From Candidatus Krumholzibacteriia bacterium (GTDB lineage Bacteria; Krumholzibacteriota; Krumholzibacteriia; LZORAL124-64-63), in assembly GCA_050174015.1 (NCBI GenBank), contig JBFXKG010000004.1, positions 100,957 through 164,956 of the forward strand: 64,000 bases of DNA, written 5' to 3'. This document shows, piece by piece, positions 17,934-44,499 of the stretch. Each line of letters begins with the position of its first letter. The stretch's first letter is position 1. The translations under genes were made by a program, and so were the position numbers. The notes beneath the pieces were generated by a model. That model made no database searches. It worked only from the letters and a program-made list of their open reading frames with translations, and was not told the origin of the DNA.

Positions 17934-20147
17934 TCAGAAGCCCACCACCCTGACGGGTCCGGCCGCCCGATGCTTGAGGGCCACCTCCTCCTCCAGGAGG
18001 GCCAGGAGATCGGCGTGCGTCGTCCGGCGGACCCCCTGCATCCGGAGGTTGCGCCGGATCAAGGCCATGTCGGCGGCCGTCAACGGGTCGAGGGCGCACA
18101 ATCGCCGCCTTTCCTCGGCCGAAGGGGCGCCCGGAGCCAGGGGCGCCAGCAGCCGGTCGTAGGTGGCCTCGATCCCCGCCGGCTCCAGGGGTCGGAACTC
18201 GACCTTCAGGGCGAACCTGCGCAGGGCGGCCGGATCCAGGGCGTCCAGCCGGTTGGTGGTGCAGATGACGGCCCCGTGATGCTGTTCGATCTGCACGAGC
18301 AGTTCGTTCACCATGCTGATTTCCCAGGTACGCCGGGAACGGCTGCGGGACGCCAGGAAGGTGTCGACCTCGTCGATCACCAGGACCGCCCCGGTCGCCG
18401 CGGCCTCGGCGAAGGCCTTCGCGAGGTTGCGCTCGGTCATGCCCACGTAGGGGTCGAGGATCTCGCTGGCCTTGCGCGTGACCACCGGGCGGCCCGCCGC
18501 GGCAGCCAGGTACCCTGCCGTCAGGGTCTTGCCGGTTCCCGGCTGGCCGTGGAAGAGCATGGCCAGGGCTCCCCGCTCGCCGGCCACGGCCGACTTGTCC
18601 AGATCCTTGACGTACCGGACCATCTGGCGGATCAGCGCCCGCAGGGGCCGCGAGGGATTCACCCCGCACTCGAGGAACTCGACGGCGGGCCCCTTGCGGA
18701 CCTCGACCCGGCGCTTGACCCCCTGCAGCCCCGCCTGGGCTTCGAGAGTCCTGCCAAAGGCCTCGCGACAGGCCCGCGGGGTGGTCTGGATCCCCGACGC
18801 CACCCTGGCGGCCATGGCGAACACCGCCGGAGCCAGGGTGAACTCCCCGGCCAGCCTGGTCACCTCCGCGGCGGTGAAGTGCCTCTTGATGCGGTGCCGC
18901 CGGAGGATTCCGTCGAGCATCGCCGCCCGCTTTTCCCCGTCCAGGGGAGGCAACTCCAGGCTGTAGGCGAACCGGCGCCTGACCGCCGGATCGATGCCGT
19001 CGTGTTCGTTGACGATCCAGATGCCCCGCGAGCCGGGCAGTTCCAGGATCCCGTTGAGGTAGCCCTTGTCCATCACTTCACCCCGGTGGAACCAGGGGCG
19101 GTCGGTGTTGAGCAGCTGGTCGGCCTCGTCCACGAAGACGAGAGCTCCCGCCTGTCCCGCCGCCATTTCCAGGCAGGCGGCCAGGGCGGCACGGCGGGCC
19201 CGGGCCTCGTTCTGGCGCTGGCCCAGCACCTCGAACCCCCGCAGTCCCAGTTCCGCGCACATGGCGCGGCACAGGGTGGTCTTGCCGGTGCCCGGAGGTC
19301 CGTAGACCAGGATGTGCACCGGGGCGTCCCCTCCGGAGGTCAACAGGAGCCGCATCAGGTCGAGCTTGCCCGTCTCGATTCCGAGGTCGTCGGCCGCCAA
19401 AGCGGATCCGGGAACCGGGCGGAAGAGTTCCTGCCTCGCGGGCGCCTGATCGGGATCGGCGAAGAACGGCAGGAATTCCTCGCTGATCTGCAGCCACTTG
19501 CGGTCGGTGTCGAGGATGCCCATGCCGGCCAGCTTGCCTCCCAGGACCGTCCCCATTTCCGCGGGAGCCAGTCCCAGGGCGGTGACCAGGCCGTCCCTGC
19601 CCCGGGGCTCGTCGCAGTGGAGGTGGTTCTCGAAGAAGTCCTGGACCGGTTCCCACCAGCGCATCGCCGTGAAGAAGAAACAGAACTCGGTCTCCTGCTC
19701 GGAAAGCCCGAACAGCCGGCGGGTCCCATCGAGATGCCGGGCCAGCGGCGAGGCCTGGAAACGGTCCCTGCCGGCGGCCCACCCGGTCAGGCGGTCGGAC
19801 AGGGTCGAGGCCAGACGCTGGAGACGGGCCGGAGGGGCCCCGTTGTGGACCACCGAGACCACCGACGCCATGTCCTGGGGGTCTCCCCAGGCCCGGCGCA
19901 GGTCGGGCAGCAGGCGGTCCCGGTCGGTGTCGCTCAGCAGGTCGTCCACCAGGGTCTGGGTTCCCGCCGGATCGACCCCGGCGACCCAGAAGGCGAACCC
20001 GAGGGTTTCCCGGTCGATGGTGCGCCGGCGGGCGACCGTGCGGGCGGCCCACTCCGCACAGGCGCAGAGAGTGAACTGGAGGTTGGCATCGGGATTTCCG
20101 GGTGTCTTCTCCTTCCGCTTGCGGGCTCGGGCGTAGAATCGCGTCAT
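17934..20147 (-). CDS. tandem AAA+ ATPase (two classical AAA modules) with about 300-aa N-terminal domain of unknown function
   Basis: Start trimmed to MTRFYARARKRK with strong RBS aaggagattgcccATG. AAA1: Walker A GPPGTGKTT, Walker B ALVFVDEADQL, Arg finger AVRRRF. AAA2: Walker A GQPGTGKTL, Walker B VLVIDEVDTF, Arg finger AALRRF. 737 aa. Confidence 0.8.
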   Translation of the reverse strand: MTRFYARARKRKEKTPGNPDANLQFTLCACAEWAARTVARRRTIDRETLGFAFWVAGVDPAGTQTLVDDLLSDTDRDRLLPDLRRAWGDPQDMASVVSVVHNGAPPARLQRLASTLSDRLTGWAAGRDRFQASPLARHLDGTRRLFGLSEQETEFCFFFTAMRWWEPVQDFFENHLHCDEPRGRDGLVTALGLAPAEMGTVLGGKLAGMGILDTDRKWLQISEEFLPFFADPDQAPARQELFRPVPGSALAADDLGIETGKLDLMRLLLTSGGDAPVHILVYGPPGTGKTTLCRAMCAELGLRGFEVLGQRQNEARARRAALAACLEMAAGQAGALVFVDEADQLLNTDRPWFHRGEVMDKGYLNGILELPGSRGIWIVNEHDGIDPAVRRRFAYSLELPPLDGEKRAAMLDGILRRHRIKRHFTAAEVTRLAGEFTLAPAVFAMAARVASGIQTTPRACREAFGRTLEAQAGLQGVKRRVEVRKGPAVEFLECGVNPSRPLRALIRQMVRYVKDLDKSAVAGERGALAMLFHGQPGTGKTLTAGYLAAAAGRPVVTRKASEILDPYVGMTERNLAKAFAEAAATGAVLVIDEVDTFLASRSRSRRTWEISMVNELLVQIEQHHGAVICTTNRLDALDPAALRRFALKVEFRPLEPAGIEATYDRLLAPLAPGAPSAEERRRLCALDPLTAADMALIRRNLRMQGVRRTTHADLLALLEEEVALKHRAAGPVRVVGF

Positions 20148-20192
20148 GGGCAATCTCCTTTCGGATCGGTTGATGCCGAATCTAACCCGAAA

Positions 20193-20212
20193 CCGTTCCA
20201 AATTTCGGAACG
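20193..20212. promoter_or_regulatory. inverted repeat CGTTCC-N7-GGAACG upstream of the AAA+ gene (site B)
   Basis: CCGTTCCAAATTTCGGAACG, 45-65 nt upstream of the ATG at 20147 and downstream of the WYL-gene terminator. Shares the CGGAACG half-site with sites C and D. Confidence 0.3.
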
Positions 20213-20249
20213 ATCGGTCAGTGGCCGGATCGACCGGAAAGGAATGCCC

Positions 20250-20279
20250 AAAAAAAGGCCCGGCGGGGAGAGCCGGGCC
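20250..20279 (-). terminator. Rho-independent terminator between the WYL regulator gene and the AAA+ gene
   Basis: 8-bp stem GGCCCGGC / GCCGGGCC with 7-nt loop (20257-20279), followed on the minus strand by seven U (plus-strand A-run 20250-20256). Confidence 0.7.
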
Positions 20280-20464
20280 AGATGAGCAATCCGTTTGCAC
20301 GGATCAGTTCCGACCGTTTAGCGAATTGTTTTACGTGGCTGCAAGCAATTCGGCTCCAAATCACCACGGGGCGGCGGGGCCCCCAGGTCCGGGTTTCCAC
20401 ATCCGACCGGTCAACACGATAACAAATCCTCCTCGAAATGTCAAGCGAAATCAATTCAAGTCGT

Positions 20465-21457
20465 TTATTTATAATATTTTACAGTTTCGGCCAATTCCGC
20501 CTGGAGCCGCTCGACCAGGGCCTTGGGGGCCAGCAACCGCGCACTGGATCCGAGGCTCAGGATCCAGGCCATGACCTCCGGCTCGCTGGTGGACGTGAAG
20601 GCGACCTCGATCCGGCCGTTCTTCTTCTCCCGGATGGTCTGGTCCGGGTTCAACTTCCGCTCGGCGGTGAAGTTCGCGGCCCATCCCCACAGCTCGGCCT
20701 TCACCTTGAAGGTCTTGCCCTTGATCACCCCGAAATGCGTGTTGAACACCTTGTCGAAGTCGTAGTCGGTCACCGGCTTGAACGGCGTGTCGGTCAGGGC
20801 GACCCCCGCGAACCGGTGCAGGGCGAACAGCGGATCGTAGCCCGGATTCCTGAACACCCGGTCGGGCATCTTGGCGTAGCGGGCGTGCACGTAGATGGTC
20901 TCGTGGTGCGAGAAGATCTTCAGGGGCTTGATCCGGAAGACCTTCGGCTCCTTGTCCTGAAGGCGCCGGTAGGCGACCTCGCAGACCCGGTGCTGCTCCA
21001 GCCCCTGGACCAGGGTGCTGAGATTCCCGTAATGCGGGGTGTAGTCGATGACCCCGGGACGGTAAACGCCGAAGGCGCTGCGGTCGGGATCCCGTCCGCC
21101 CTGGTGCAGCCTCGCCGTCTTGTCCACGGCGCGCATGGCCGCGGTGAAGTGCTCGCGCCCCAGCAGATGGCTGGTGAAGGCCCGGCACATCAGCAGCACC
21201 TCCAGTTCGTCGTCCGTCAAGGGCAGCGTCGCCTTGGGCCGGCGCGCCCGCGGGATGCGGTAGAAGCTCCGGTTGCCCTTGGGCACCCGTTCGATGCCGG
21301 TCCCCCCCTCGTCCAGGTCCGCGACCAGGCGCAGGACCGTCTGCTTGCTGCATTGCAGGCGTGAGCTGAGTTCGGTGAGGGAATACTCCCGGTCGTTGAA
21401 AAGGAGCATGGCGTAGAGCTCGAGCAGGCGGGACCCGGGGGAGATGCCGGCTGTCAT
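20465..21457 (-). CDS. HTH-WYL-WCX transcriptional regulator (PafBC/DriD/BrxR-like)
   Basis: Start trimmed to MTAGISPGSRLLELYAMLL (cat at 21455-21457). N-terminal wHTH (YSLTELSSRLQCSKQTVLRLVADL). Middle WYL-like segment (KPLKIFSHHETIYVHARY ... FALHRFAGV, an IYV variant of the WYL triad). C-terminal extension of about 100 aa. Confidence 0.8.
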   Translation of the reverse strand: MTAGISPGSRLLELYAMLLFNDREYSLTELSSRLQCSKQTVLRLVADLDEGGTGIERVPKGNRSFYRIPRARRPKATLPLTDDELEVLLMCRAFTSHLLGREHFTAAMRAVDKTARLHQGGRDPDRSAFGVYRPGVIDYTPHYGNLSTLVQGLEQHRVCEVAYRRLQDKEPKVFRIKPLKIFSHHETIYVHARYAKMPDRVFRNPGYDPLFALHRFAGVALTDTPFKPVTDYDFDKVFNTHFGVIKGKTFKVKAELWGWAANFTAERKLNPDQTIREKKNGRIEVAFTSTSEPEVMAWILSLGSSARLLAPKALVERLQAELAETVKYYK

Positions 21458-21526
21458 GGGGCGTCCTTTCACGGAGGGGATTCGGTGCCGCCTCGATTCT
21501 CCAGCAGCCGGCAGGATCCCGCAAGA

Positions 21527-21546
21527 CCATTCCGGATACCGGAACG
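21527..21546. promoter_or_regulatory. palindrome ATTCCGG-ATA-CCGGAACG upstream of the WYL regulator (site C)
   Basis: cATTCCGGATACCGGAACGc; arms TTCCGG / CCGGAA with 3-nt spacer, 70-90 nt upstream of the WYL ATG. Candidate autoregulatory operator. Confidence 0.35.
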
Positions 21547-21819
21547 CAAAGACGATCAGGCCCGGCGGACCAACGGTCCGCCGGGCCGCCGCATCGGAAG
21601 GCTCGCCCAACCTTCCTCCACGGTCACCGGACCCGGATCAGGGCTCCAGGGTCAGGTCGATGGTCACCTTGGCGATGCCCGGCCTGCGGCCTCATCACGG
21701 GCCTTCCTGATCTCGATCACGTTCATGCCTTCTCCTCCGGTCGATTGTTCCGATGCTGTCGGCAATCATACCCCGGACCCGACGATCTATTTGCCAGGAT
21801 GTCGATAATAGCGGCGGGT

Positions 21820-30192: not shown

Positions 30193-31224
30193 TCACGCGC
30201 GGGGCCGGCTCCGGAGCGCCCGGAAGCTGACCATCTTCTGCTGCTGCTCGTCCCAGAGGTTCATGGCCAGCGACCGCAGGCTGCGCCTGAGGGTCAGGGG
30301 AGACACCGCCTGCAGGACGGGGATGGTGTCCTGACAGGCCTGCAGGTGGTAGTTGGGGATGCGGGGCCGCAGGTGGTGGATGTGGTGCAGGCCGATGTTG
30401 CCCGTGATCCACTGGAGGATGCGCGGCAGCTTGTAGTAGGAGCTGCCCTTCAGGGCTGCGTCGAGGGGATCCCGCTGGTCCCCCGTCGCCCAGTAGGCGT
30501 CCTCGAACTGGTGCTGCACGTAGAAGAGCCAGACGCCCATGGTCCAGGAGATGACGATGACCGGCACCTGCACCAGCAGGTAGGTCTGCCAGCCCACCGT
30601 CAGGGCGGCGACCGTGAAGATCCCCGCCAGCGCCAGATTGGTGATCATCACGCTGGCGACCGCCCGCCAACCCGACCCGCGGTCGGGGATGCGGTAGGCG
30701 ATGATCGACAGCCAGAACGGCACCACCAGCAGCAGGAAGAACGGATTGCGGACCAGGCGGTAGCCGAGCCGGGTGAGGCGCGGCGCCTTGAGGTATTCCT
30801 CCACCGTCATGGTCCAGACGTCCCCGGTGCCCCGGTTGTCGAGATCCCCCGCCGTCGCGTGGTGGATGTTGTGGCTCCGCTTCCAGGCGTCGAAGGGCGT
30901 GAAGGTGAGGATGCCCGTGACGTACCCCACGATGCGGTTGGCCCGGCGCGAGGCGAAGTAGGAATCGTGGCAGCAGTCGTGGAAGAAGATGAAGATGCGG
31001 ATCGACAGGGCCGCCGCCACCGGAGCCATGGCCAGGGTCGCCGCGTAGGGCCATCCCTCGACCCGGCTGTAGACCATCAGGGCCAGCACCGTCAGGTAGG
31101 GGATGATGGTGTTGACGAGCTGCGCGACGGCCTTGCGGGTGTCCGACCGGCTGAACGGGGCGATGGCCCGGCTCCAGTCGGAGCGACCGCCCGGCTTCCC
31201 GGGCGTCCTGGACTCAGTGGTCAT
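30193..31224 (-). CDS. membrane fatty-acid desaturase
   Basis: Three His boxes (HDCCH, HNIHH, HHIHH) and TM-rich body; 343 aa. Confidence 0.85.
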   Translation of the reverse strand: MTTESRTPGKPGGRSDWSRAIAPFSRSDTRKAVAQLVNTIIPYLTVLALMVYSRVEGWPYAATLAMAPVAAALSIRIFIFFHDCCHDSYFASRRANRIVGYVTGILTFTPFDAWKRSHNIHHATAGDLDNRGTGDVWTMTVEEYLKAPRLTRLGYRLVRNPFFLLLVVPFWLSIIAYRIPDRGSGWRAVASVMITNLALAGIFTVAALTVGWQTYLLVQVPVIVISWTMGVWLFYVQHQFEDAYWATGDQRDPLDAALKGSSYYKLPRILQWITGNIGLHHIHHLRPRIPNYHLQACQDTIPVLQAVSPLTLRRSLRSLAMNLWDEQQQKMVSFRALRSRPRA

Positions 31225-33034: not shown

Positions 33035-35638
33035 TCACCGTACCAGGGTGATCCTCCGGGTCCGCACGGTCCCCTCCGCTTCCAGCCGCACCAGGTAGAC
33101 GCCGCTGGACTGGGGACGCCCGGAATGGTCCGATCCATCCCAGATCACCTCGTGCCTGCCTTCCCCTCTCGCTCCTTCCACCAGGACCCTCACCAGGCGG
33201 CCGGCCGGATCGAAAACGCCCAGCCTTACGGAAGCCGCGCGAGGCAACTCGAACGTGACCTCGGTGTGGGGATTGAACGGGTTCGGCCGCGCCGGATGCA
33301 ACTGCACGCCGGACACCGCAGCCGGCACGTCCGGCGAACCGGTCACCGGTTCGAGCAGCGGCCGCTCGTACGCCCCGTTCCCGTGGCCGGCGATGCGCAG
33401 CATCCGGTCACCCGGCGAAATCGCGAGGTCCATGACCATGACGGCTCCCGGCAATCCCTCGCTGAAGGCGAACCACGACTGCCCGGAGTTCACCGTTGCG
33501 AAGACGCCCAGATCCGTCCCCACGTAGACGTTCTGGGAATCCTGGGGATCGACCACCACCGCCTGGGTCGGCACGTCCGGCAGGCCGGCGCCCACGTCCT
33601 GCCAGGTCGCTCCCGCATCGTCGGTCCGGAAGACGTGGCTCGTTCCGAAACCCGAGAACGTGATCCAGACCACGGCGTCTTCCGCCGGATCGATGGCCAG
33701 GCCCACCGGGTACCGGTCCGGAAGGTCCCGGGTCACGTTGGTCCAGGTCGCCCCGCCGTCGAGGGTGCGGAACACCCCCGCCCGGGCGGTCACCGGAGCG
33801 GTGGTGACGTAGGCCGTCCTGCTGTCCGCCTGCGAGACTTCCAGGGCGAGAGCTGGATTCCCGTCGAGGGCGTACCCCCCGTTGGTCACCGCCCAGGTTT
33901 CGCCCTGGTCGAGGCTCTTGAGGACGAGACTGCCGCCGGCGTAGATCACGCCGGGTTCGGCGGGACCGCCCAGGGCGTACGGCGCGATGAACCCCGCGCT
34001 GCCGGCTCCGGGCAGCGCGAGCTCGACCCAGTTCGCGCCCGCATCCCGCGAACGCAACATGCCCAGGTACTGGTAGGACCCGAACAGCGTCGCGTCGTCG
34101 GTCGGATCGATGGCCGCGCATGACCCGTCACCACCGATCACCCTCGTCCAGGCCACGCTGCCGGTGTAGATGGCCGTGGCGTTGTCCTGCATGCCGCCGA
34201 TAGCCAGGTCCGGATCGGTCGGCGAACAGGCGAATCCGGGATAGAACTGCTGGGTCTGGTAGCCTCCGTTGCAGCCGGCGAACGTCAATCCCCCGTTCAG
34301 CGAGCGGAAGATGCCCCCGTCGTTGGCGAAATAGACGATGTCGGGATTCGTCGGATGCCACGCCACGTCGTGGTGGTCGGCATGGGAGTAGTTCGGCGGA
34401 CCTTCCGGCCCCCCCGGAGGCACCTGGCCGAAGATCCAGGCCCGCCAGTCCGACCGCTTGGCAAGGCTCGCCCCGCCGTTCACGCTGCGCCAGATGTCGA
34501 TGCCCACGGCCATCACCAGGAAGGGGTCGGTCGGGCTCACCGCGACGTCGTGGGAGAACCAGCCCTGCCACTGGCTGTAATCGGTGGTGGACTTCACGGT
34601 CCAGGTCGATCCCGCGTCCTGGGATCGCCCCAGCCAGGTGCCCGATGCCCCCAGGCCCCCGTTGCCGATGCTGACGTACATGACGTCGGGCTGGCCAGTG
34701 CAGACCGCCAGCTGGGCCTTTCCCAGGTAGCTGGACGGTCCGATGTTCTGGGCGACACGGAGCCAGTTCAGCCCTCCGTCGGTCGTGCGGTAGATTCCCG
34801 CCTGGGGGCTGCCCAGGTTGCCGGCCGCGATGACCACCGTGTCCGGATGGACGGTGTGGATCACCAGGTCGGTGACCATGGGGATGGCGTTCACCTGGAC
34901 CCAGCTGGATCCGCCGTCGGTGGTCTTGTAGACCCCCTCCGTGGTTCCGGCCCAGACCGTCCTGCGGTCGAGTGGATCGACCCGCACCACCTGGACTCCC
35001 CTCTGCTGGTCGTACGACCAGTCCAGGGACTTGTGCCAGGTGGCGCCTCCGTTGGTCGACCTGAGCACGCCGATGCCGAAACTGCCCCGGGTCAGCCTCA
35101 CCGAGAGCCCGCCCTGGGTGTCGTCGTACGAATAGACCTCCCCCGTGCCGATGTAGATGGTCAACGAATCGTCCGGCGCGAAGGCCACCGACCCCACCCC
35201 CAGCACCGGATGCCCGGTCTCGACCCTTTCCCAGGCGGCCGCACCCACGCCCCCGGTGTAGCTTCGCCACAGGCCGCCGCTTGCCGATCCGGCCCAGACC
35301 GTCGTGGGATTCTGGGGATTGAAGGCGATACACAGGGTGCGTCCGCCGATGTTGTGCGGGCCGATGGCCACCCAGCTGGAGCCGCCGGTCTTGGCCGCCG
35401 GAGCGCGCCGCATCCTGTCGCGGGCGAAGGTGAAGGCCTCGGCGTAGCCGGACCGGGGCAGATCCCGCCCGGGATAGGCCCGCTGGCGGGCGAGGAATTC
35501 CATGGCCTGGCCGGCGCCCGAAAGGGCCGGAGCCCTGCCCGCCCCCCCTGGGGCCGGATCATCCAGGCTGAACAACAGGCCCAGGCTGACGGTGGCCACC
35601 ACAGCGGCCACGAGACCGGGAACAGGAACTCGCTTCAT
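33035..35638 (-). CDS. BNR/Asp-box repeat (sortilin/Vps10- or GH74-like) secreted protein with T9SS-type C-terminal sorting domain
   Basis: Signal peptide; multiple S/T-x-D-G-G-x-T/S-W Asp-box repeats (STNGGATW, TTDGGSSW, TTDGGLNW, SQDAGSTW, SVNGGASL, TLDGGATW, TDDAGATW); tail PNPFNPHTEVTF...GVYLVRLEAEGTVRTRRITLVR. Confidence 0.75.
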   Translation of the reverse strand: MKRVPVPGLVAAVVATVSLGLLFSLDDPAPGGAGRAPALSGAGQAMEFLARQRAYPGRDLPRSGYAEAFTFARDRMRRAPAAKTGGSSWVAIGPHNIGGRTLCIAFNPQNPTTVWAGSASGGLWRSYTGGVGAAAWERVETGHPVLGVGSVAFAPDDSLTIYIGTGEVYSYDDTQGGLSVRLTRGSFGIGVLRSTNGGATWHKSLDWSYDQQRGVQVVRVDPLDRRTVWAGTTEGVYKTTDGGSSWVQVNAIPMVTDLVIHTVHPDTVVIAAGNLGSPQAGIYRTTDGGLNWLRVAQNIGPSSYLGKAQLAVCTGQPDVMYVSIGNGGLGASGTWLGRSQDAGSTWTVKSTTDYSQWQGWFSHDVAVSPTDPFLVMAVGIDIWRSVNGGASLAKRSDWRAWIFGQVPPGGPEGPPNYSHADHHDVAWHPTNPDIVYFANDGGIFRSLNGGLTFAGCNGGYQTQQFYPGFACSPTDPDLAIGGMQDNATAIYTGSVAWTRVIGGDGSCAAIDPTDDATLFGSYQYLGMLRSRDAGANWVELALPGAGSAGFIAPYALGGPAEPGVIYAGGSLVLKSLDQGETWAVTNGGYALDGNPALALEVSQADSRTAYVTTAPVTARAGVFRTLDGGATWTNVTRDLPDRYPVGLAIDPAEDAVVWITFSGFGTSHVFRTDDAGATWQDVGAGLPDVPTQAVVVDPQDSQNVYVGTDLGVFATVNSGQSWFAFSEGLPGAVMVMDLAISPGDRMLRIAGHGNGAYERPLLEPVTGSPDVPAAVSGVQLHPARPNPFNPHTEVTFELPRAASVRLGVFDPAGRLVRVLVEGARGEGRHEVIWDGSDHSGRPQSSGVYLVRLEAEGTVRTRRITLVR

Positions 35639-39272: not shown

Positions 39273-40487
39273 TTGAAACGTGTGATCAGCCCGACCGGTT
39301 TTCTGTCGATCGCCCTCATGCTGCCCACCCTGGCCGGCTCCGCGCAACCCACCCACGTCGCCAATTCCGACCAGCCCCGCGACGGGAGGCACGTCCTCGA
39401 GATGGCGACCGTCTGGCACCGGGGCCATGACGCCGACGACCTCATCTTCGGCTCCATCAACAACGTGCAGGTCGGTCCCGACGGCGGCATCTACGTCCTG
39501 GACCAGCAGCAGTCCCAGGTCTGCGTCTTCGACGATGCGGGCGAACTGCTGCGCACCCTCGGCCGCGAAGGGGAGGGCCCGGGAGAATCGCGCCAGCCCG
39601 AGGACATGGTCTTCCTGCCCGACGGCAGCCTGGGCCTGGCCCAGTACATCAACGGGCGCATCGTGAGGATCGACCTGAAGGGCACCCCCCTGAAGATGCT
39701 GATGCCCCCGGGCTTCGATCCCCAGGGGGGCGGCGGCGGCCTGGTGAGCATCAGGCGCGCCCGTTGCAGGGGCGGCTCCTTCGTGATCAACGGCGTGAAG
39801 GTCTCTCCCCAGGACGACGGGATGATCCGCACCCAGTACCTGGTCCGGTGCAACGAGCAAGCCGAACCGCTGGTCGAGTACCTCTCCCGGTCCACCTCCT
39901 CGAACCTCCAGAGGGACGGCTGGGTCGAGAAGAACCACTACTTCCCCTCGCACGAACGGTGGGACATCGACGCCCGGGGGCGGGTGCTCGCCGCCTGCGA
40001 ACGCAACGAATACCGCCTCACCGTCTTCGAACCCGACGGGACCGAGGCCTTCACCTTCGGCCGCGACCAAGAGCCCTGGCGGCGCACCGGGCAGGAGAAA
40101 CAGGAGATCAGGGATTCGCTGGTGGTCCTGGCGGACGGCGTGAGGGTGCAGATCGAGGTCCAGGTCGAGGACATGGCTCCGGTCATCGCCGCGGTCCACG
40201 CCATGCCCGGCGGGGAAACCTGGGTCCTCACGACGCGCAACATGAAGGACCAGCCCGACGGGATCATGCAGACCTACGACGTCTTCGATTCGGCGGGACT
40301 GTTCATCCGGCAGGAGGAGGTCGCCTGCGGCGGGGAGGCCGACGAGGACCGCCTGATCTTCCTGGACGAAGGCCGGGCCGCCCTGGTCCGGGGCGCCGTC
40401 CAGGCCCGCCGCAACACCTTCGGCGGCAGCCGCACCGACGAGGACCAGGACGTCGCCGTCCACGACCTGATGATCCTGGCGTATTGA
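39273..40487 (+). CDS. secreted beta-propeller-like hypothetical protein
   Basis: TTG start (per ORF track) with RBS aaaggagcctgtcTTG; signal peptide MKRVISPTGFLSIALMLPTLAGSA. Repetitive beta-strand-rich body; no clear family. Confidence 0.55.
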   Translation: MKRVISPTGFLSIALMLPTLAGSAQPTHVANSDQPRDGRHVLEMATVWHRGHDADDLIFGSINNVQVGPDGGIYVLDQQQSQVCVFDDAGELLRTLGREGEGPGESRQPEDMVFLPDGSLGLAQYINGRIVRIDLKGTPLKMLMPPGFDPQGGGGGLVSIRRARCRGGSFVINGVKVSPQDDGMIRTQYLVRCNEQAEPLVEYLSRSTSSNLQRDGWVEKNHYFPSHERWDIDARGRVLAACERNEYRLTVFEPDGTEAFTFGRDQEPWRRTGQEKQEIRDSLVVLADGVRVQIEVQVEDMAPVIAAVHAMPGGETWVLTTRNMKDQPDGIMQTYDVFDSAGLFIRQEEVACGGEADEDRLIFLDEGRAALVRGAVQARRNTFGGSRTDEDQDVAVHDLMILAY

Positions 40488-40699
40488 GCCCTGCATGTTC
40501 AAGGCCATGCCCGCCGGGATCGAATGGGGGCAGCCGGACGCCCCGGAGCTTCTGGTAGCGGGAGGTCCTCAGCCGCCCAGGACCGGCCCTGGTCGCTTCC
40601 GATCTGGAGTTGGGGCCGACATCAGCAAAGGGGCGCGGCCGGGTTCAACTCGCCCGATTTGGCCGCCAACATCGTGACTTGTGCCGCCGAAAATGAGTT

Positions 40700-40743
40700 C
40701 CCCAGTCAATGATGGAAAATTCCATCGTTGACTGGGGTTTTAT
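40700..40743 (+). terminator. Rho-independent terminator (strong hairpin plus U-tract)
   Basis: 17-bp stem CCCCAGTCAATGATGGA / TCCATCGTTGACTGGGG (one G-U wobble) with AAAT loop, followed by TTTTAT. A second 8-bp hairpin GTCCTAAT-N7-ATTAGGAC lies at 40744-40766 in an AT-rich spacer. Confidence 0.6.
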
Positions 40744-40813
40744 GTCCTAATTTATTACATTAGGACAAAAAATTTGAACCTGAGCCGATGGGGAACAAAT
40801 TCGGCGGCACAAC

Positions 40814-41080
40814 CTAACGGTTCCCTCCCCTTCCCCAGCCTCGGCCGGGGCCGAAACCGCGCCCGCGCCCGCCGCCGGCGCCCAAACCCGCCCCACGCCC
40901 CAGCCCCCGGCCGAATCCCCGGCCCAGGCCCCTGCCGAACCCCCGACTCCGATCCTGCGGATCCGAGGCTGGCGCCTCGTTCGCTTTTTGATCGTCCTGC
41001 CGCGGCACCCCGCAGCGTCCCAGACCCCGCCCCGTGCGGGGACCCTGGCCCAGCGGACCTCGTCCATTCTCTCCCGGCAT
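40814..41080 (-). CDS. putative small Gly/Arg-repeat (GRG/RGG-box) protein
   Basis: ORF 40814..41089 on the minus strand. ATG at 41080 is preceded by AAAGGTGA 5 nt upstream. Encodes ...SRGFGRGLGRGFGRGLGRGAGLGAGGGRGRGFGPGRGWGRGGNR; the underlying DNA is a degenerate CCCGGCCGAAnCCC tandem repeat. Sits 15 nt after the DUF134 stop and just before the terminator hairpins. Both strands are open here, so coding status is uncertain. Confidence 0.3.
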   Translation of the reverse strand: MPGENGRGPLGQGPRTGRGLGRCGVPRQDDQKANEAPASDPQDRSRGFGRGLGRGFGRGLGRGAGLGAGGGRGRGFGPGRGWGRGGNR

Positions 41081-41104
41081 CGCGTTCACCTTTCGGTTGC
41101 GGAG

Positions 41105-41494
41105 TCAGACCCGCCCGTCCCGCCGGCATCCCCGCCGCCCCCTGCGGCCGGGCTCGCTGCCGGGGAGGCTCCCCGGATCCTCCCGGTCGCCAGGTCCCAC
41201 GGTTTCCACGTGGCCCCCTTCGACCCGGATGGCCCACCCGTGGACCAATGCGGCCGCCGTCTTGCGCCGGGCCTCGGCGATGATCCGGCCGGCGGTGGCG
41301 CGCGAGACGTTCATCATCTCGCCGACCTGTTCCTGGCTCAGGCCTTCGAGGTCGGCCAGCCGCAGGGCCTCGAGCTCGTCGAGCCCCAGGGCGACCTCTT
41401 CCAGGTCGCGCATGGGGATCCCGGCCGGCTTGAAGTAGACCACCGAGGGATCGTGGCGGACGGAGCGCATCTTGGGTGGGCGGGGCAAGGTCAT
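41105..41494 (-). CDS. DUF134 (UPF0251) family putative DNA-binding protein
   Basis: MTLPRPPKMRSV ... VVYFKPAGIPMRDLEEVALGLDELEALRLADLEGLSQEQVGEMMNVSRATAGRIIAEARRKTAAALVHGWAIRVEGG matches the DUF134 consensus (MPRPRKCRRV...FKPxGIP...LxLDExEAxRLxDxEGL). Divergently transcribed from the NifX/MinD cluster. Confidence 0.8.
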   Translation of the reverse strand: MTLPRPPKMRSVRHDPSVVYFKPAGIPMRDLEEVALGLDELEALRLADLEGLSQEQVGEMMNVSRATAGRIIAEARRKTAAALVHGWAIRVEGGHVETVGPGDREDPGSLPGSEPGRRGRRGCRRDGRV

Positions 41495-41583
41495 CCTCCT
41501 GTTTGCTTTTTCCTGGTTATGAGCATATACTCAAAACTGGAAACCGTCAAATCGACTGGTGAACCGATCCCACGGAGGTCGCG

Positions 41584-41940
41584 ATGAAGCTGGTCATCAC
41601 AGCCCAGGGCCCGAACCCGGAAGACCCGGTGGACCCCCGCTTCGGCCGTGCAGCCTACCACATCCTCTTCGACGACAAGGCGGGAACCTTCACGACCCTG
41701 GAAAACCAGGGGAGGGACGCCGCCCAGGGCGCCGGGGTCCAGGCGGCCCAGACCATCGCCGCCAGCGGGGCCGAAGTCCTGCTGACCGGCCACTGCGGGC
41801 CCAAGGCCTTCCAGGCCCTGGAGGCAGCCGGGGTCTCGATCTTCTCCGGCGTCGAAGGTCGGATCCTCGATGCGGTCCAGGCCTGGCGGGACGGCCGGCT
41901 GGAGGAGCTCCACAGCCCCGACGGCACCCCCCGTCACTGA
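41584..41940 (+). CDS. NifB/NifX/NafY-family (dinitrogenase FeMo-cofactor-binding fold) protein
   Basis: 118 aa. MKLVITAQGPNPEDPVDPRFGRAAYHILFD...AGAEVLLTGHCGPKAFQALEAAGVSIFSG: typical DUF269/NifX-like architecture. Confidence 0.75.
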   Translation: MKLVITAQGPNPEDPVDPRFGRAAYHILFDDKAGTFTTLENQGRDAAQGAGVQAAQTIAASGAEVLLTGHCGPKAFQALEAAGVSIFSGVEGRILDAVQAWRDGRLEELHSPDGTPRH

Positions 41941-41948
41941 GAGGCCCC

Positions 41949-42800
41949 ATGCGCATCGCGGTCGCCAGCGGCAAGGGAGGAACGGGCAAGACCACCGTCG
42001 CGGTCAATCTGGCCGTCACCGTGGCCCGGTCCGGCCGTCAGGTCCATCTCTGCGACTGCGACGTCGAGGAGCCCAACGCGGCCATCTTCCTCGACCCGCA
42101 GCTGGGACCGGCGGTTCCCGTGTCCACCCCGATCCCCGTGGTCGACAGCGATCTCTGCAACCACTGCGGGCAGTGCGCCGCCATCTGCGAGTTCAACGCC
42201 ATCGCCTGCCTGCCCCACCGGACCCTCGTATTTCCCGATCTCTGCCACAGCTGTTCCGGTTGCTGGCTGGTTTGCCCCGAGCAGGCCATCACCCAGGCCG
42301 ACCGGGTGCTCGGCGAGGTCTCGGTCGGTTCAGCCGGACCCATCGGCTTCACCCAGGGCGTGCTCCGCATCGGAGAGACAGTCGTTCCTCCCCTGATCCA
42401 CACAGTCAAGGCGACTGTCCGCGGAGCACCCTGGGTGATCCTCGACGCCCCCCCCGGCACCACCTGCCCGGCCGTGGAGGCCCTGCGCGGGGCCGATTTC
42501 GTCGTGCTGGTCACCGAACCCACCCCCTTCGGACTGCACGATCTCGACCTGGCCGTCAAGCTGGCCCGAGGTCTCGACATCCCCTGCGGGGTCGTCGAGA
42601 ACCGGGCGATTCCCGGACGGGACATCGTGGACCGTTTCTGCGCGGAAAAGGACCTCCCCGTCCTGGCCCGCATCCCCTTCACCCGGGAGCTGGCCGCCGT
42701 GGGTTCCGAAGGGGGACTTCTCGTCGATGCGGACGCCGGCGTCGCCGCCGCCTTCACCCACCTGCTCGATGAACTGGTGGGACTGGAGGCGCGGACATGA
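41949..42800 (+). CDS. MinD/Mrp-family P-loop ATPase with inserted 4Fe-4S ferredoxin domain
   Basis: Start trimmed to MRIAVASGKGGTGKTT (deviant Walker A); ferredoxin insert CNHCGQCAAICEFNA ... CHSCSGCWLVCP; ParA/MinD body. Confidence 0.8.
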   Translation: MRIAVASGKGGTGKTTVAVNLAVTVARSGRQVHLCDCDVEEPNAAIFLDPQLGPAVPVSTPIPVVDSDLCNHCGQCAAICEFNAIACLPHRTLVFPDLCHSCSGCWLVCPEQAITQADRVLGEVSVGSAGPIGFTQGVLRIGETVVPPLIHTVKATVRGAPWVILDAPPGTTCPAVEALRGADFVVLVTEPTPFGLHDLDLAVKLARGLDIPCGVVENRAIPGRDIVDRFCAEKDLPVLARIPFTRELAAVGSEGGLLVDADAGVAAAFTHLLDELVGLEART

Positions 42801-43702
42801 AGGAACTGGTGGTCCTCAGCGGCAAGGGCGGCACCGGCAAGACCAGCGTCACCGCGGCCCTCGCGGCCCTCGGGGCGGGCGCAGTGCTGGCCGACTGCGA
42901 CGTGGACGCCGCCAACTTCCATCTCGTCCTCGGGACGCACGGCGAGGCGGCCCATCCCTTCGTGTCGGGACACACCGCGGTGATCCGGACCGGCGATTGC
43001 TCCGGCTGCGGCGAATGCGCCAGGCTCTGCCGTTTCGATGCCATCCTGACTGAAACCGTCGCCGGCGGGATCCGGTTCCGGGTCGATCCGATCGCCTGCG
43101 AGGGCTGCGGCGTCTGCGTGCACTTCTGCCCCGGCGGGGCCATCGACTTCCCCTCGAGAACGTGCGGCTGGTGGGGAACCTCAAGGACACGGTTCGGCAC
43201 CTTGATCCACGCCGCCCTCGACGTGGGCGCGGAAAACTCCGGCAAGCTGGTCACCCTGGTGCGGGAGCAGGCCCGCAAGGCCGCAATCGGTTCGGGCGCG
43301 GACCTGGTCCTGGTGGACGGCCCTCCCGGGATCGGCTGCCCGGTGACCGCCTCGCTCACAGGTGTGGACCTGGCCCTCCTGGTGACCGAACCGAGCCTGC
43401 CCGCCCTGCACGATCTCGGGCGGATCCGCGAACTCGCCCGGCACTTCGCCGTGCCGGTGATGGTCTGCATCAACAAGTGGGATCTCAACCCCCGCCTGTC
43501 CGACCGCATCGCGGAATTCTGCCGGGACCAGGGCATTCCCGTCGTCGGCCGCCTCCCCTATGATCCCCTGGCCGGGGACGCCCAGATCGCCGGACTCAGC
43601 CTGGTGGAATTCGCCCCCGAATCCCCTGCCGCGAGGGCGCTCGCCGCCATGTGGGAAGACATCAGCGGCGCCCTCGCGGCCGCATCGCAACCGAAAGGAT
43701 GA
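42797..43702 (+). CDS. second MinD/Mrp-family P-loop ATPase with 4Fe-4S ferredoxin insert
   Basis: MKELVVLSGKGGTGKTS; CSGCGECARLCRFDA ... CEGCGVCVHFCP. Start overlaps the upstream stop (ATGA). Confidence 0.8.
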   Translation: MKELVVLSGKGGTGKTSVTAALAALGAGAVLADCDVDAANFHLVLGTHGEAAHPFVSGHTAVIRTGDCSGCGECARLCRFDAILTETVAGGIRFRVDPIACEGCGVCVHFCPGGAIDFPSRTCGWWGTSRTRFGTLIHAALDVGAENSGKLVTLVREQARKAAIGSGADLVLVDGPPGIGCPVTASLTGVDLALLVTEPSLPALHDLGRIRELARHFAVPVMVCINKWDLNPRLSDRIAEFCRDQGIPVVGRLPYDPLAGDAQIAGLSLVEFAPESPAARALAAMWEDISGALAAASQPKG

Positions 43703-43706
43703 TTCC

Positions 43707-44045
43707 ATGCGCATCGCCGTTCCGGTCAACCAGGGCAAGCTCTCGGCCCACTTCGGCCACTGCGAACACTTCGCGTTGATCGAGGTCGACACCCGCGAGA
43801 AAACAATCATCGGGCAGGAAAGCGCCACCCCGCCTCCCCACGAACCCGGCGTGCTGCCGGTCTGGCTGGCCGATCTGGGGGTGGAGCTGGTGCTGGCCGG
43901 AGGCATGGGGGGACGGGCCCAGCAGGCCCTGAACGCCAGGAACGTCCAGGTTCTCGTCGGCGTGCCCGAGCTGGATCCCGAAACCCTGGTCCGCGCCTGG
44001 CTCCAGGGGGAACTCCCCTCGGGCCTCAACTCCTGCGACCATTGA
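43707..44045 (+). CDS. NifB/NifX-family protein (second copy)
   Basis: Start trimmed to MRIAVPVNQGKLSAHFGHCEHFALIEVD...GVELVLAGGMGGRAQQAL; RBS cgaaaggatgattccATG. Confidence 0.75.
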   Translation: MRIAVPVNQGKLSAHFGHCEHFALIEVDTREKTIIGQESATPPPHEPGVLPVWLADLGVELVLAGGMGGRAQQALNARNVQVLVGVPELDPETLVRAWLQGELPSGLNSCDH

Positions 44046-44061
44046 CCGCCTGGAGGAAGCC

Positions 44062-44499
44062 ATGAAGAAGCTGGGGATCATCATCTGCCACCGGTACCAC
44101 ACCTGCGCCGGGGGCAAGTGCTTCCGCTCGTTGCGGGAGCGTGAAGGCGCCTTCGCGAGATACGCGGGCGAGGAGGTCGAACTCGTGGGGTACACCACCT
44201 GCGACGGCTGTCCCGGCGGCAACGTGGAGTACGCTCCGGCCGAGATGAAACGCAACGGGGCCGAGGTGGTCCATCTGGCCACCGGCCTGGTGGTGGGTTA
44301 TCCACCCTGTCCCTACCTGGACTACTTCCGGGAGTACATCCCCCGCCAGTTCGGCCTCGAGGTGGTGGTCGGCACCCATCCCATCCCCGAGAAGTACCGC
44401 ATCATCCACGATCAGCTGGGAACCTGGCAGGCGCCGTCGTTCCCCGATGACCTGAAGTCCCTGCTCGCCGACGAGCCGACGCGATTGGCCTACGACTGA
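44062..44499 (+). CDS. CGGC-domain metal-binding protein
   Basis: CHRYHTCAGGKCF ... CDGCPGG: CGGC-domain pattern; 145 aa. Confidence 0.65.
   Translation: MKKLGIIICHRYHTCAGGKCFRSLREREGAFARYAGEEVELVGYTTCDGCPGGNVEYAPAEMKRNGAEVVHLATGLVVGYPPCPYLDYFREYIPRQFGLEVVVGTHPIPEKYRIIHDQLGTWQAPSFPDDLKSLLADEPTRLAYD

What the first reader, a model, noticed from the sequence alone, without database searches (positions are those of the whole stretch)
41105..44499. DUF134 regulator divergent from a NifX-like / MinD-ferredoxin ATPase x2 / NifX-like / CGGC-domain cluster
Five tightly packed genes (41584-44499) encode two NifB/NifX-fold small proteins, two ParA/MinD-type P-loop ATPases each carrying an inserted 2x CxxCxxCxxxCP ferredoxin motif, and a CGGC-domain metal-binding protein. 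They are divergently transcribed from a DUF134 helix-turn-helix protein. This conserved but functionally uncharacterised gene set is best known from anaerobes and archaea, where it is presumed to deliver or mature Fe-S or metal cofactors. Here it sits in an organism that also encodes an O2-dependent desaturase and an F-type ATPase. The DUF134 gene is followed by a GRG-repeat small ORF.
Basis: partly seen in the sequence, partly recalled or inferred. Interest (0 to 1): 0.55.

Follow-up and report, generated by a model that had tools for sequence, protein, structure and literature searches.

The report
Orange-protein (ORP) operon with DUF134 operator
The five genes are a version of the already described "orange protein" (ORP) metal-cluster complex of sulfate reducers, so the cluster itself is ordinary. 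What is new is a 20-base palindrome next to the DUF134 regulator gene that recurs across many phyla and is its likely binding site.

Summary
All seven ORFs hit the predicted Pfam families, and a five-gene operon faces a DUF134-DUF5320 pair.

It is not an unknown gene set. [quoted passage not shown]
- The first NifX-like protein matches D. gigas ORP (PDB 2WFB, E=4.5e-23).
- The two MinD-ferredoxin ATPases correspond to Orp3 and Orp4.
- The second NifX-like protein matches the C-terminal domain of MrpORP (Orp9).

The gene order ORP, ATPase, ATPase, NifX-like recurs in most of 80 species-representative loci from more than 12 phyla. This copy lacks the Mrp P-loop and the sigma-54/OrpR regulator of Desulfovibrio.

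I found a 20-bp palindrome, TTATGAGCATATACTCAAAA (41517-41536), in the divergent intergenic region. It overlaps sigma-70-like -10 hexamers on both strands. An exact scan of metagenomes gave at least 120 occurrences, and 82 of them lie directly upstream of a DUF134 gene. I infer that DUF134 is an autoregulated repressor and that this is its operator.

The biochemical role is most likely ATP- and redox-dependent handling of a metal-sulfur cluster, but this is unproven. The contrast with an aerobic lifestyle is weak. The cluster is a new member of a known kind and of moderate interest.

The parts
40814..41089 (-). DUF5320 small Arg/Gly-rich protein, co-transcribed downstream of DUF134. The true start is probably ATG 41080 (MPGENGRGPLGQGP...).
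   Evidence: Pfam PF17253, 5e-10. The same gene is called and annotated DUF5320 in the syntenic MAG locus L204. The palindrome lies directly upstream of DUF5320 genes in L131, L189 and L147.
41105..41494 (-). DUF134 (UPF0251) helix-turn-helix protein, the inferred repressor. The probable true start is TTG 41488 (127 aa).
   Evidence: Pfam PF02001, 1e-21, plus a sigma-70 region-4-like HTH at residues 40-78. 105 homologues share RPxKxRRV...FKPxGIP...DELEAxRLADLEGL...ISRxTFGRIL. The SD/start reasoning comes from the sequence and from the 127-aa call in L204.
41495..41583 (.). Divergent regulatory region holding two face-to-face sigma-70-like promoters. On the + strand: -35 TTGCTT 41503-41508, 17-nt spacer, -10 TATACT 41526-41531. 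On the - strand: -35 TTGACG 41550-41545, 17-nt spacer, -10 TATGCT 41527-41522.
   Evidence: The - strand promoter was found by the consensus scan. The + strand promoter was read from the sequence; its -35 matches only 3 of 6. Both -35 blocks and the -10/palindrome block are invariant in five loci whose proteins are only about 60-90% identical. No sigma-54 promoter match lies in this region and there is no Rfam hit.
41517..41536 (.). 20-bp imperfect palindrome TTATGAGCATATACTCAAAA (family consensus TTATGAGCATATGCTCATAA). It is the inferred DUF134 operator and overlaps both -10 hexamers.
   Evidence: It is the only match in the 64-kb window. It lies 100 nt or less upstream of the DUF134 start in 15 of 19 DUF134-bearing genome loci. 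An exact metagenome scan gave at least 120 occurrences: 82 directly upstream of DUF134, 8 upstream of ORP/NifX-like genes and at least 3 upstream of DUF5320. It always overlaps a sigma-70-type core promoter.
41584..41940 (+). Orange protein (ORP/Orp8) homologue with a NifX-fold, a small metal-cluster carrier.
   Evidence: PF02579, 3e-20. The best PDB match is 2WFB, D. gigas ORP, E=4.5e-23 over residues 2-108. H70, C71 and the C-terminal H118 are conserved in 78-96% of 82 orthologues.
41949..42800 (+). MinD/Mrp/NifH-class P-loop ATPase 1 with an inserted 2x[4Fe-4S] ferredoxin domain (Orp3/Orp4-type).
42797..43702 (+). Paralogous MinD-ferredoxin ATPase 2 (Orp3/Orp4-type). Its start overlaps the stop of ATPase 1 (ATGA).
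   Evidence: Pfam. Eight ferredoxin Cys and C181 in PPGIGCP are invariant in 65 orthologues. The ATP1-then-ATP2 order is conserved in most of the genome loci.
43707..44045 (+). Second NifX-fold protein of the MrpORP 'Di-Nase' type, with HFGHCE and C-terminal CDH motifs. It stands alone here.
   Evidence: PF02579, 6e-20. It matches positions 265-365 of NCBIfam NF041136 MrpORP, 2.6e-36. H15, H18, C19, H45, C110 and H112 are at least 91% conserved. These motifs were proposed as Fe-S ligands in MrpORP (PMC6345978). It is fused to an Mrp P-loop in at least 19 of 58 loci and free in the rest.
44062..44499 (+). CGGC-domain Cys/His-rich protein, the last gene of the operon.

Best explanation
This is an orp-type operon, the gene set of the orange protein complex. 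It is controlled by a DUF134 repressor rather than by the sigma-54/OrpR system known from Desulfovibrio.

Shown by the tools:
- The five co-directional genes encode an ORP (Orp8) homologue, two paralogous MinD/NifH-class ATPases each carrying a 2x[4Fe-4S] ferredoxin insert (Orp3/Orp4 type), a stand-alone NifX-fold protein of the MrpORP C-terminal type, and a very conserved CGGC Cys/His protein.
- A 20-bp palindrome sits between the operon and the divergent DUF134-DUF5320 pair and overlaps both -10 hexamers.
- The same palindrome accompanies DUF134 genes across phyla.

Inferred:
- DUF134 binds the palindrome as a dimer. It thereby represses its own transcription unit and the orp operon at once, until an unknown signal releases it. 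That signal may be metal- or cluster-related and may be relayed by DUF5320 or by a NifX-fold protein.
- The two ATPases form an ATP-sandwich heterodimer. It uses nucleotide hydrolysis and electrons from its ferredoxin domains to build, reduce or hand over a metal-sulfur cluster.
- The cluster is carried by the two NifX-fold proteins, with the CGGC protein as a further metal or Fe-S site.
- The client enzyme and the exact cofactor (Mo/W-Cu-S or Fe-S) remain unknown.
For: Identity of the cluster:
- PDB 2WFB (ORP) matches at E=4.5e-23.
- The NCBIfam MrpORP Di-Nase region matches at 2.6e-36.
- Pfam architectures agree.
- In the literature the DvH ORP complex is Orp3/Orp4 (two 2x[4Fe-4S] ATPases), Orp5, Orp8 (ORP) and Orp9 (MrpORP). 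Orp3 co-purifies with Orp4 and Orp8, and these proteins receive Fe-S from MrpORP (PMC6345978).
- Synteny holds across most of 80 loci from more than 12 phyla, and 502 of the candidate stretches encode a relative. There is an identical layout in NCBI MAG GCA_043826375.1.

Regulation:
- The intergenic blocks are invariant in five loci while the proteins diverge.
- The palindrome is unique in the window.
- 15 of 19 DUF134 genes in genome loci have it 100 nt or less upstream, against about 6.6 chance hits per 1.08 Mb.
- In the unbiased metagenome scan, 82 of 120 occurrences abut a DUF134 start and at least 11 more abut ORP, NifX-like or DUF5320 genes.
- The palindrome overlaps TTGACA-N17-TATAAT-type promoters in different registers.
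- The putative recognition helix ISRxTFGRIL is conserved in 105 DUF134 proteins.
- Variant sites differ on one side only, with no compensatory changes.

ATPase mechanism:
- Deviant Walker A, Walker B and all 16 ferredoxin Cys are invariant.
- A further invariant Cys lies 7 residues after the Walker B Asp in both paralogues. NifH carries a cluster ligand at that spacing (Cys132; from my own knowledge).
- The fold is equally close to MinD, Mrp/ApbC and NifH/BchL.
Against: - No biochemical function of any ORP complex is established. The Desulfovibrio authors favour a role in cell division.
- Binding of DUF134 to the palindrome is inferred from co-localisation only.
- The palindrome is transcribed in many loci and would form a stable RNA hairpin, -14 kcal/mol for the consensus. 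Positions 3 and 18 show a slight excess of compensated combinations.
- Repression rather than activation is inferred only from promoter overlap.
- The + strand -35 is weak (3 of 6).
- The Mrp P-loop partner that loads Fe-S in Desulfovibrio is absent from this cluster.
- The structurally characterised ORP lacks the His-Cys pair conserved here, so cofactor chemistry may differ.
- The CGGC fold search gave nothing specific.
Confidence: 0.7

Rival explanations
1. The ATPase pair works like MinD/ParA in positioning the division septum or the chromosome, as proposed for the Desulfovibrio ORP complex. The metal clusters would serve only as redox sensors.
Against: - Scores against the MinD equivalog models are far below cut-off: 44 bits against 212.9 for bacterial MinD, and 64-77 against 201.75 for archaeal MinD.
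- No minC or minE is adjacent.
- The constant partners are NifX-fold cluster carriers and Cys/His proteins.
- The fold is just as close to Mrp/ApbC, HypB-type and NifH.
- The division role is called a hypothesis by its own authors.
Confidence: 0.15
2. The palindrome is not a DUF134 operator. It would be a 5'-UTR RNA hairpin affecting stability or translation, or the site of another regulator.
For: In most loci the palindrome begins at or just after the -10, so it is transcribed. The consensus folds at -14 kcal/mol, z = -6.9, and the window copy at -8.9 and -6.5 kcal/mol on the two strands. There is a slight excess of compensated W/W combinations at positions 3 and 18.
Against: - The 14-nt core is conserved in sequence, not merely in pairing, across distant phyla.
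- Variant sites carry one-sided changes that would break pairs, including C8/A13 in this window.
- In a subset of loci the palindrome lies between -35 and -10 and would be only partly transcribed.
- In the window it serves two divergent promoters at once.
- It travels with an HTH protein gene.
- There is no Rfam match.
Confidence: 0.15
3. DUF134 is an activator, like other proteins with a sigma region-4-type HTH, or a dual regulator, rather than a repressor.
For: The HTH resembles sigma-70 region 4. The + strand -35 of the orp promoter is poor (3 of 6), which is typical of activator-dependent promoters.
Against: The site overlaps the -10 or the transcription start, not the -35-upstream position typical of class I/II activators, in essentially all of the 82 oriented loci.
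Confidence: 0.2
4. The cluster is an accessory part of a nitrogenase (nif) or hydrogenase maturation pathway encoded elsewhere.
For: It contains NifX/NifB-family domains and a NifH-like fold.
Against: - No nif or hyp genes turned up among the roughly 27 window ORFs scanned, nor among the called genes of the syntenic loci.
- The same cluster occurs in hundreds of species of very different physiology.
- The NifH match is limited to the P-loop N-terminus.
- The closest characterised homologue is ORP, not NifX.
Confidence: 0.03

Closest known systems
ORP (orange protein) complex gene cluster of Desulfovibrio vulgaris Hildenborough: orp3-orp4-orp5 and orp7-orp8-orp9, DVU2103-DVU2109 (Fievet 2011; PMC6345978; PMC8359166)
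   Same: - An ORP homologue (2WFB, 4.5e-23).
- Two paralogous MinD-type ATPases, each with two [4Fe-4S] motifs.
- A Di-Nase/NifX-fold Fe-S protein with HFGHCE and CDH motifs.
- Tight clustering, and divergent transcription from a regulatory gene.
   Different: - A single five-gene operon instead of two divergent operons.
- No Mrp/NBP35 P-loop fused to the Di-Nase domain.
- No sigma-54 promoter, OrpR or evident IHF dependence. Instead there are sigma-70-like promoters and a DUF134 palindrome.
- A CGGC protein and a DUF5320 protein are present.
- The ORP here carries a conserved His-Cys pair and a C-terminal His that are absent from D. gigas ORP.
- I could not obtain the DvH sequences, so the families of Orp5 and Orp7 were not compared directly.
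MrpORP (Orp9, NCBIfam NF041136), an Mrp/NBP35-type Fe-S carrier with a C-terminal Di-Nase domain
   Same: The window's second NifX-like protein aligns to model positions 265-365 (2.6e-36) and keeps the HFGHCE and CDH motifs.
   Different: The P-loop domain is absent. The score of 125.7 bits is far below the 450-bit cut-off. The first Cys of the CxHFGHCE motif is Ser here.
NifH/BchL and Mrp/ApbC/Nbp35 (SIMIBI ATPases that hold or transfer Fe-S clusters at a dimer interface)
   Same: - Deviant Walker A with the signature Lys.
- An invariant Cys 7 residues after the Walker B Asp, as for NifH Cys132 (the NifH spacing is from my own knowledge).
   Different: - There is an inserted two-cluster ferredoxin domain.
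- There is no CxxC of the Mrp type.
- A second interface ligand equivalent to NifH Cys97 was not identified.
- No reductase partner is known.
Small autoregulated HTH repressors with a palindromic operator over a divergent promoter (for example the ArsR/MarR/Rrf2-type logic)
   Same: One palindrome sits over the core promoter(s), the regulator's own gene lies immediately downstream, and target genes are transcribed divergently.
   Different: DUF134 belongs to none of these families. Its HTH is most like sigma-70 region 4. It has no recognisable ligand-binding domain, and no operator or effector has been reported (no paper holds the motif).

Membership tests
ORP complex gene cluster (Desulfovibrio type) | Orange protein (Orp8) homologue with a NifX/Di-Nase fold | tested here: met
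   PDB 2WFB E=4.5e-23; PF02579, 3e-20.
ORP complex gene cluster (Desulfovibrio type) | Two paralogous MinD-like ATPases, each with two [4Fe-4S] ferredoxin motifs (Orp3/Orp4) | tested here: met
   Pfam CbiA/ParA plus Fer4 in both. All 16 Cys are invariant in 65-68 orthologues. The published description is in PMC6345978.
ORP complex gene cluster (Desulfovibrio type) | MrpORP (Orp9): an Mrp/NBP35 P-loop fused to a Di-Nase domain | tested here: not met
   Only the Di-Nase part is present, as a separate 112-aa protein (125.7 bits against a cut-off of 450). There are 4 nt between ATPase 2 and this gene. It is fused in at least 19 of 58 other loci.
ORP complex gene cluster (Desulfovibrio type) | Sigma-54 promoter with a cognate enhancer-binding protein OrpR (and IHF) | tested here: not met
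   No TGGCAC-N5-TTGC-like site lies in 41495-41583. No GAFTGA-type EBP ORF is in the window, although 27 of 83 other ORP loci have one.
ORP complex gene cluster (Desulfovibrio type) | Physical complex of the Orp proteins, and a Mo-Cu-S cluster on ORP | not testable with these tools
   This needs co-purification and metal analysis. Only translational coupling (the ATGA overlap) and conserved synteny support it here.
ORP complex gene cluster (Desulfovibrio type) | Restriction to strict anaerobes ('anaerobe-specific') | tested here: inconclusive
   Relatives occur in MAGs of many phyla, including lineages with aerobic members. The window encodes a fatty-acid desaturase. Krumholzibacteria MAGs can carry O2 reductases. 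The physiology of this organism is unknown.
DUF134 / UPF0251 (PF02001) | Pfam model match above the gathering score | tested here: met
   77.8 bits against 27. The NCBIfam equivalog PRK04217 is below its cut-off, 61.6 against 115.
CGGC domain (PF08821) | Pfam model match and the conserved CGGC/Cys-His pattern | tested here: met
   98.4 bits against 27. C9, C15, C20, C47, C50, H71, C83, H106 and H116 are invariant. The window has CDGC where the majority has CGGC.
MinD septum-site ATPase | Match to the MinD equivalog models, with MinC/MinE partners | tested here: not met
   TIGR01968: 44 bits against 212.9. TIGR01969: 64-77 bits against 201.75. No minC or minE is nearby. The C-terminal membrane helix was not examined.
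Nitrogenase (nif) cofactor pathway | Presence of nifHDK/nifEN/nifB with NifX | tested here: not met
   No such genes were found among the roughly 27 window ORFs scanned or among the called genes of the syntenic loci. The NifH hit is to the P-loop N-terminus only. The rest of the genome was not available.

The most novel reading that the evidence does not exclude
DUF134 (UPF0251), a family with no assigned function, is a widespread autoregulated repressor. Its operator is the 20-bp palindrome TTATGAGCATATGCTCATAA. Its regulon, across at least a dozen phyla, consists of NifX-fold metal-cluster carriers (ORP, His-rich NifX-like proteins), MinD-ferredoxin ATPases and DUF5320. It would be the sigma-70 counterpart of the redox-sensing sigma-54 activator OrpR. 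Its signal could be the loading state of a NifX-fold or DUF5320 partner, since the protein has no sensor domain of its own.
Probability: 0.55. Interest if true: 0.55.

Novelty: new member of a known kind. Interest (0 to 1): 0.4.

Why it matters

This locus shows a compact form: no Mrp domain and no sigma-54 regulator. It lies in a lineage related to Krumholzibacteriota that is probably exposed to oxygen. This helps define which parts are core: ORP, two ATPases and a Di-Nase protein.

The palindrome gives DUF134 a concrete, testable role. It also gives a handle for finding the signal that switches these clusters on, and the full regulon, in any genome. That could reveal the client pathway.

Two conserved features are testable clues to cofactor chemistry. 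One is the extra invariant Cys at the NifH-like switch II position of both ATPases. The other is the His-Cys pair in most ORP homologues, which is absent from the one solved ORP structure.

Tried and rejected
- An exact look-up of the window's CGGC protein found no source contig.
- Fievet 2011 (PMC3133258) is not held. I therefore could not compare the DvH Orp5 and Orp7 families directly. Indirect text links Dde_3197 (the Orp5 homologue) to Di-Nase proteins.
- Literature searches for DUF134, DUF5320, CGGC or COG1149 function found nothing relevant. The palindrome string is in no paper.
- Sequence searches of the PDB gave no relatives for the CGGC protein or DUF134, and only P-loop or ferredoxin fragments for the ATPase.
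- A sigma-54 promoter was sought and rejected. An Rfam element was sought and rejected.
- The covariation test at palindrome positions 3 and 18 was inconclusive.

Full report
**Observation.** The window is about 68% G+C, so many spurious overlapping ORFs appear. The seven ORFs of the finding are real genes. Pfam gives:
- DUF134 (41105-41494, minus strand): 1e-21.
- Nitro_FeMo-Co/NifX-like (41584-41940): 3e-20.
- Two CbiA/ParA P-loop proteins with two Fer4 motifs each (41949-42800 and 42797-43702).
- A second Nitro_FeMo-Co protein (43707-44045): 6e-20.
- CGGC (44062-44499): 3e-28.
- DUF5320 for the GRG-repeat ORF (40814-41089, minus strand): 5e-10.

The true starts of ATPase 1 and of the second NifX-like gene are internal ATGs of longer ORFs. 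The five plus-strand genes are separated by 8, -4, 4 and 16 nt, and the scan found one terminator-like site on that strand, outside the operon. They form one operon.

Flanking genes are unrelated: macro domain, beta-propeller, OMP beta-barrel, saccharopine dehydrogenase. The motif description needs one correction. Each ATPase has two CxxCxxCxxxC motifs, but only the second is followed by Pro. DUF134 most likely starts at TTG 41488. This gives MPRPPK, the family N-terminus, an AGGAGG 6 nt upstream, and 127 aa as in the closest MAG.

**What it is.** The first NifX-like protein is a close homologue of the orange protein ORP of Desulfovibrio gigas (PDB 2WFB, E=4.5e-23, residues 2-108). The second matches the C-terminal "Di-Nase" domain of NCBIfam MrpORP (positions 265-365, 2.6e-36). 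It keeps the HFGHCE and C-terminal CDH motifs that Pardoux et al. proposed as Fe-S ligands (PMC6345978).

In D. vulgaris Hildenborough the ORP complex consists of:
- Orp3 and Orp4, related proteins each with two [4Fe-4S] ferredoxin motifs.
- Orp5.
- Orp8, which is ORP.
- Orp9, which is MrpORP.

Orp3 co-purifies with Orp4 and Orp8, and these proteins receive Fe-S clusters from MrpORP in vitro. The genes form two divergent operons, orp3-4-5 and orp7-8-9. They are driven by sigma-54, the redox-sensing activator OrpR, and IHF. The window therefore holds an orp-type cluster, not an undescribed gene set. Its physiological role is still open. The Desulfovibrio authors suggest cell division as a hypothesis.

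**Relatives and context.** The closest named relatives are Krumholzibacteriota MAGs: ORP about 60% identical, DUF134 82-84%, ATPases 61-65%. An NCBI MAG labelled only "bacterium" (GCA_043826375.1) has ATPase 1 at 95% identity. It has exactly the same layout, from the YceI/macro genes through DUF5320, DUF134, the five-gene operon, the OMP and the saccharopine dehydrogenase.

A degenerate-pattern scan of one genome per species found 599 candidate stretches, and 502 of them encode an ORP relative. The best 80 come from MAGs labelled Krumholzibacteriota, Planctomycetota, Fibrobacterota, Acidobacteriota, Desulfobacterota, Hydrogenedentota, Gemmatimonadota, Armatimonadota, Verrucomicrobia, Bacillota, Methylomirabilota and others.

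Mapping the seven window proteins onto these loci gave the following:
- The order ORP, ATPase 1, ATPase 2 holds in most of them, usually followed by the MrpORP-type NifX-like gene.
- CGGC is present in about 20 loci.
- DUF134 is present in about 20 loci.

In at least 19 of 58 loci the NifX-like B domain is fused behind an Mrp-type P-loop (a true MrpORP). In the window and its nearest relatives it stands alone. 27 of 83 loci encode a GAFTGA/GAFTDA enhancer-binding protein next to ORP, usually 1-6 kb upstream, which is OrpR-like. The window has none, and there is no sigma-54 promoter match in the intergenic region.

**The regulatory element.** I aligned the DUF134/ORP intergenic region of the window with four relatives. 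Two AT-rich blocks are invariant although the flanking proteins diverge to about 60%. They read as two face-to-face sigma-70-like promoters:
- Plus strand: TTGCTT, 17 nt, TATACT.
- Minus strand: TTGACG, 17 nt, TATGCT.

The two -10 hexamers overlap inside a 20-bp imperfect palindrome, TTATGAGCATATACTCAAAA, at 41517-41536. In locus L002 the palindrome is perfect. It is the only match in the 64-kb window.

In the genome loci, which were chosen by the ORP protein and not by the motif, 15 of 19 DUF134 genes have the palindrome (2 mismatches or fewer) within 100 nt upstream of the start. Two DUF134-less loci have it 87-88 nt upstream of ORP. Shuffles give about 6.6 hits per 1.08 Mb.

As an unbiased test I scanned the metagenome collection for TTWTGAGCATATRCTCAWAA. 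My rough expectation for a 20-mer of this degeneracy was a handful, although the size of the collection was not measured. The results were:
- 82 of the 120 have a DUF134 gene starting 150 nt or less downstream, mostly 0-30 nt.
- 8 have an ORP or NifX-like gene there.
- At least 3 of the remainder have a DUF5320 gene there.

Oriented alignment shows a canonical TTGACA-N17-TATAAT promoter ending at the palindrome in most loci. In a subset, TTGACA abuts the palindrome and its 3' end, CATAAT, serves as the -10. The register differs, but the palindrome always overlaps the core promoter or the start site. That is the position of a repressor operator. The presumed recognition helix (ISRxTFGRIL) is conserved in 105 DUF134 proteins, which fits the conserved site. 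No paper in the library contains the motif, and I found no functional literature on DUF134.

I infer that DUF134 is an autoregulated repressor. In this window one operator controls both the DUF134-DUF5320 unit and the orp operon.

The main rival is an RNA hairpin. The consensus would fold at -14 kcal/mol. Against this, the core is conserved in sequence, variant sites carry one-sided changes that break pairing (including the window's own C/A pair), and there is no Rfam match. The test at positions 3 and 18 was inconclusive. Elsewhere, DUF134 is often followed by His-rich NifX-like proteins and permeases. This suggests that the family generally controls small metal-cluster carriers.

**Proteins and mechanism.** Orthologue alignments show the following in both ATPases:
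- An invariant deviant Walker A, GKGGTGKT.
- An invariant Walker B.
- All eight ferredoxin cysteines.
- One further invariant Cys in PPG(T/I)xCP, 7 residues after the Walker B Asp (C173 and C181).
- A highly conserved Cys in the switch I DCD motif (C37 96%, C34 88%).

From my own knowledge, NifH carries its cluster ligand Cys132 at the same spacing from Asp125. This is a lead and was not tested here.

The conserved gene order, the overlapping stop and start codons, and the published co-purification of Orp3 and Orp4 suggest a heterodimer.

The ORP homologue has His70-Cys71 and a C-terminal His, conserved in 78-96% of 82 orthologues. D. gigas ORP has Tyr-Val at that position. Most family members may therefore ligate their cofactor differently from the one characterised protein.

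The CGGC protein is the most conserved member. The top 120 hits are 72-99% identical and nearly all exactly 145 aa. It has six invariant Cys and three invariant His. Its model (pLDDT 87.5) is a Rossmann-like alpha/beta domain with no specific structural relative.

My best reading is an ATP- and electron-driven machine that assembles or transfers a metal-sulfur cluster between the ATPase pair and the NifX-fold carriers. This is inference, and the client is unknown.

**The lifestyle argument.** The fatty-acid desaturase (30193-31224) and the F-type ATPase genes are real. An F-ATPase says nothing about oxygen. Krumholzibacteria MAGs with several O2 reductases have been described (PMC7914226), and ORP clusters occur in many lineages that are not strict anaerobes by name. 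"Anaerobe-specific" is thus probably too strong a label, but finding the cluster here is not very surprising.

**Verdict.** The cluster is a new member of a known kind: a compact, Mrp-less form regulated by DUF134 rather than by OrpR and sigma-54. The most useful new result is the cross-phylum palindrome, which gives DUF134 a testable function. Interest is moderate (0.4).

Noticed in passing
window 41791-41796 (H70-C71 of the ORP homologue) and its C-terminal H118: Most ORP homologues (78-96% of 82) carry a His-Cys pair in TGHCGPKAF and a C-terminal His. The only solved ORP (D. gigas 2WFB) has Tyr-Val there and binds its Mo-Cu cluster non-covalently. Cofactor binding may differ in most of the family.
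   Followed up: partly
window 44062-44499: The CGGC protein is far more conserved than its operon partners. It is 72-83% identical to most of its best metagenomic hits, which are nearly all exactly 145 aa, against roughly 45-65% for ORP and the ATPases in the same kinds of organisms.
   Followed up: partly
loci L086, L116, L120, L180, L188, L198, L149 (downstream of DUF134): In many metagenome loci, DUF134 with its palindrome is followed not by an orp operon but by a 130-160 aa NifX-like protein with a His-rich insert (for example HGHGQHHHGEEH). This is often followed in turn by membrane permease-like genes. That looks like a second, metal-related regulon type.
   Followed up: partly
27 of 83 ORP loci, e.g. 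L027, L031, L073 (1-6 kb upstream of ORP): A sigma-54 enhancer-binding protein (GAFTGA/GAFTDA) is encoded next to ORP, so OrpR-type control is widespread. A few loci (L042, L047, L061, L063) combine an EBP with DUF134 or the palindrome.
   Followed up: partly
L061 15647-15660: There is a second exact copy of the palindrome core in the same locus, about 7.6 kb from the one upstream of ORP. Its downstream gene was not identified.
   Followed up: no
window 39273-40487 and 40488-40813: Compared with the 92%-related contig L001, the window has an extra six-bladed beta-propeller gene between the macro-domain gene and DUF5320. The 95%-related MAG (L204) has that gene plus a further 230-aa gene that the window lacks. 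This is a small variable spot next to a conserved cluster.
   Followed up: partly
window 40700-40737 and 40744-40766: A perfect 17-bp stem hairpin followed by TTTT lies between the convergent beta-propeller and DUF5320 genes and is probably a bidirectional terminator. A second short palindrome, GTCCTAAT...ATTAGGAC, follows it.
   Followed up: no
window 17934-21610 (minus strand): A 788-aa protein with two AAA domains lies next to a WYL/WCX-domain protein. WYL regulators often accompany defence or DNA-damage systems. I did not examine this further.
   Followed up: no
window 33035-35638 (minus strand): A BNR/Sortilin-type repeat protein has a C-terminal FlgD-Ig-like domain, a domain I recall being used as a secretion/sorting tag in FCB-group relatives. 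This would fit a Krumholzibacteriota-like origin, but that link was not checked here.
   Followed up: no
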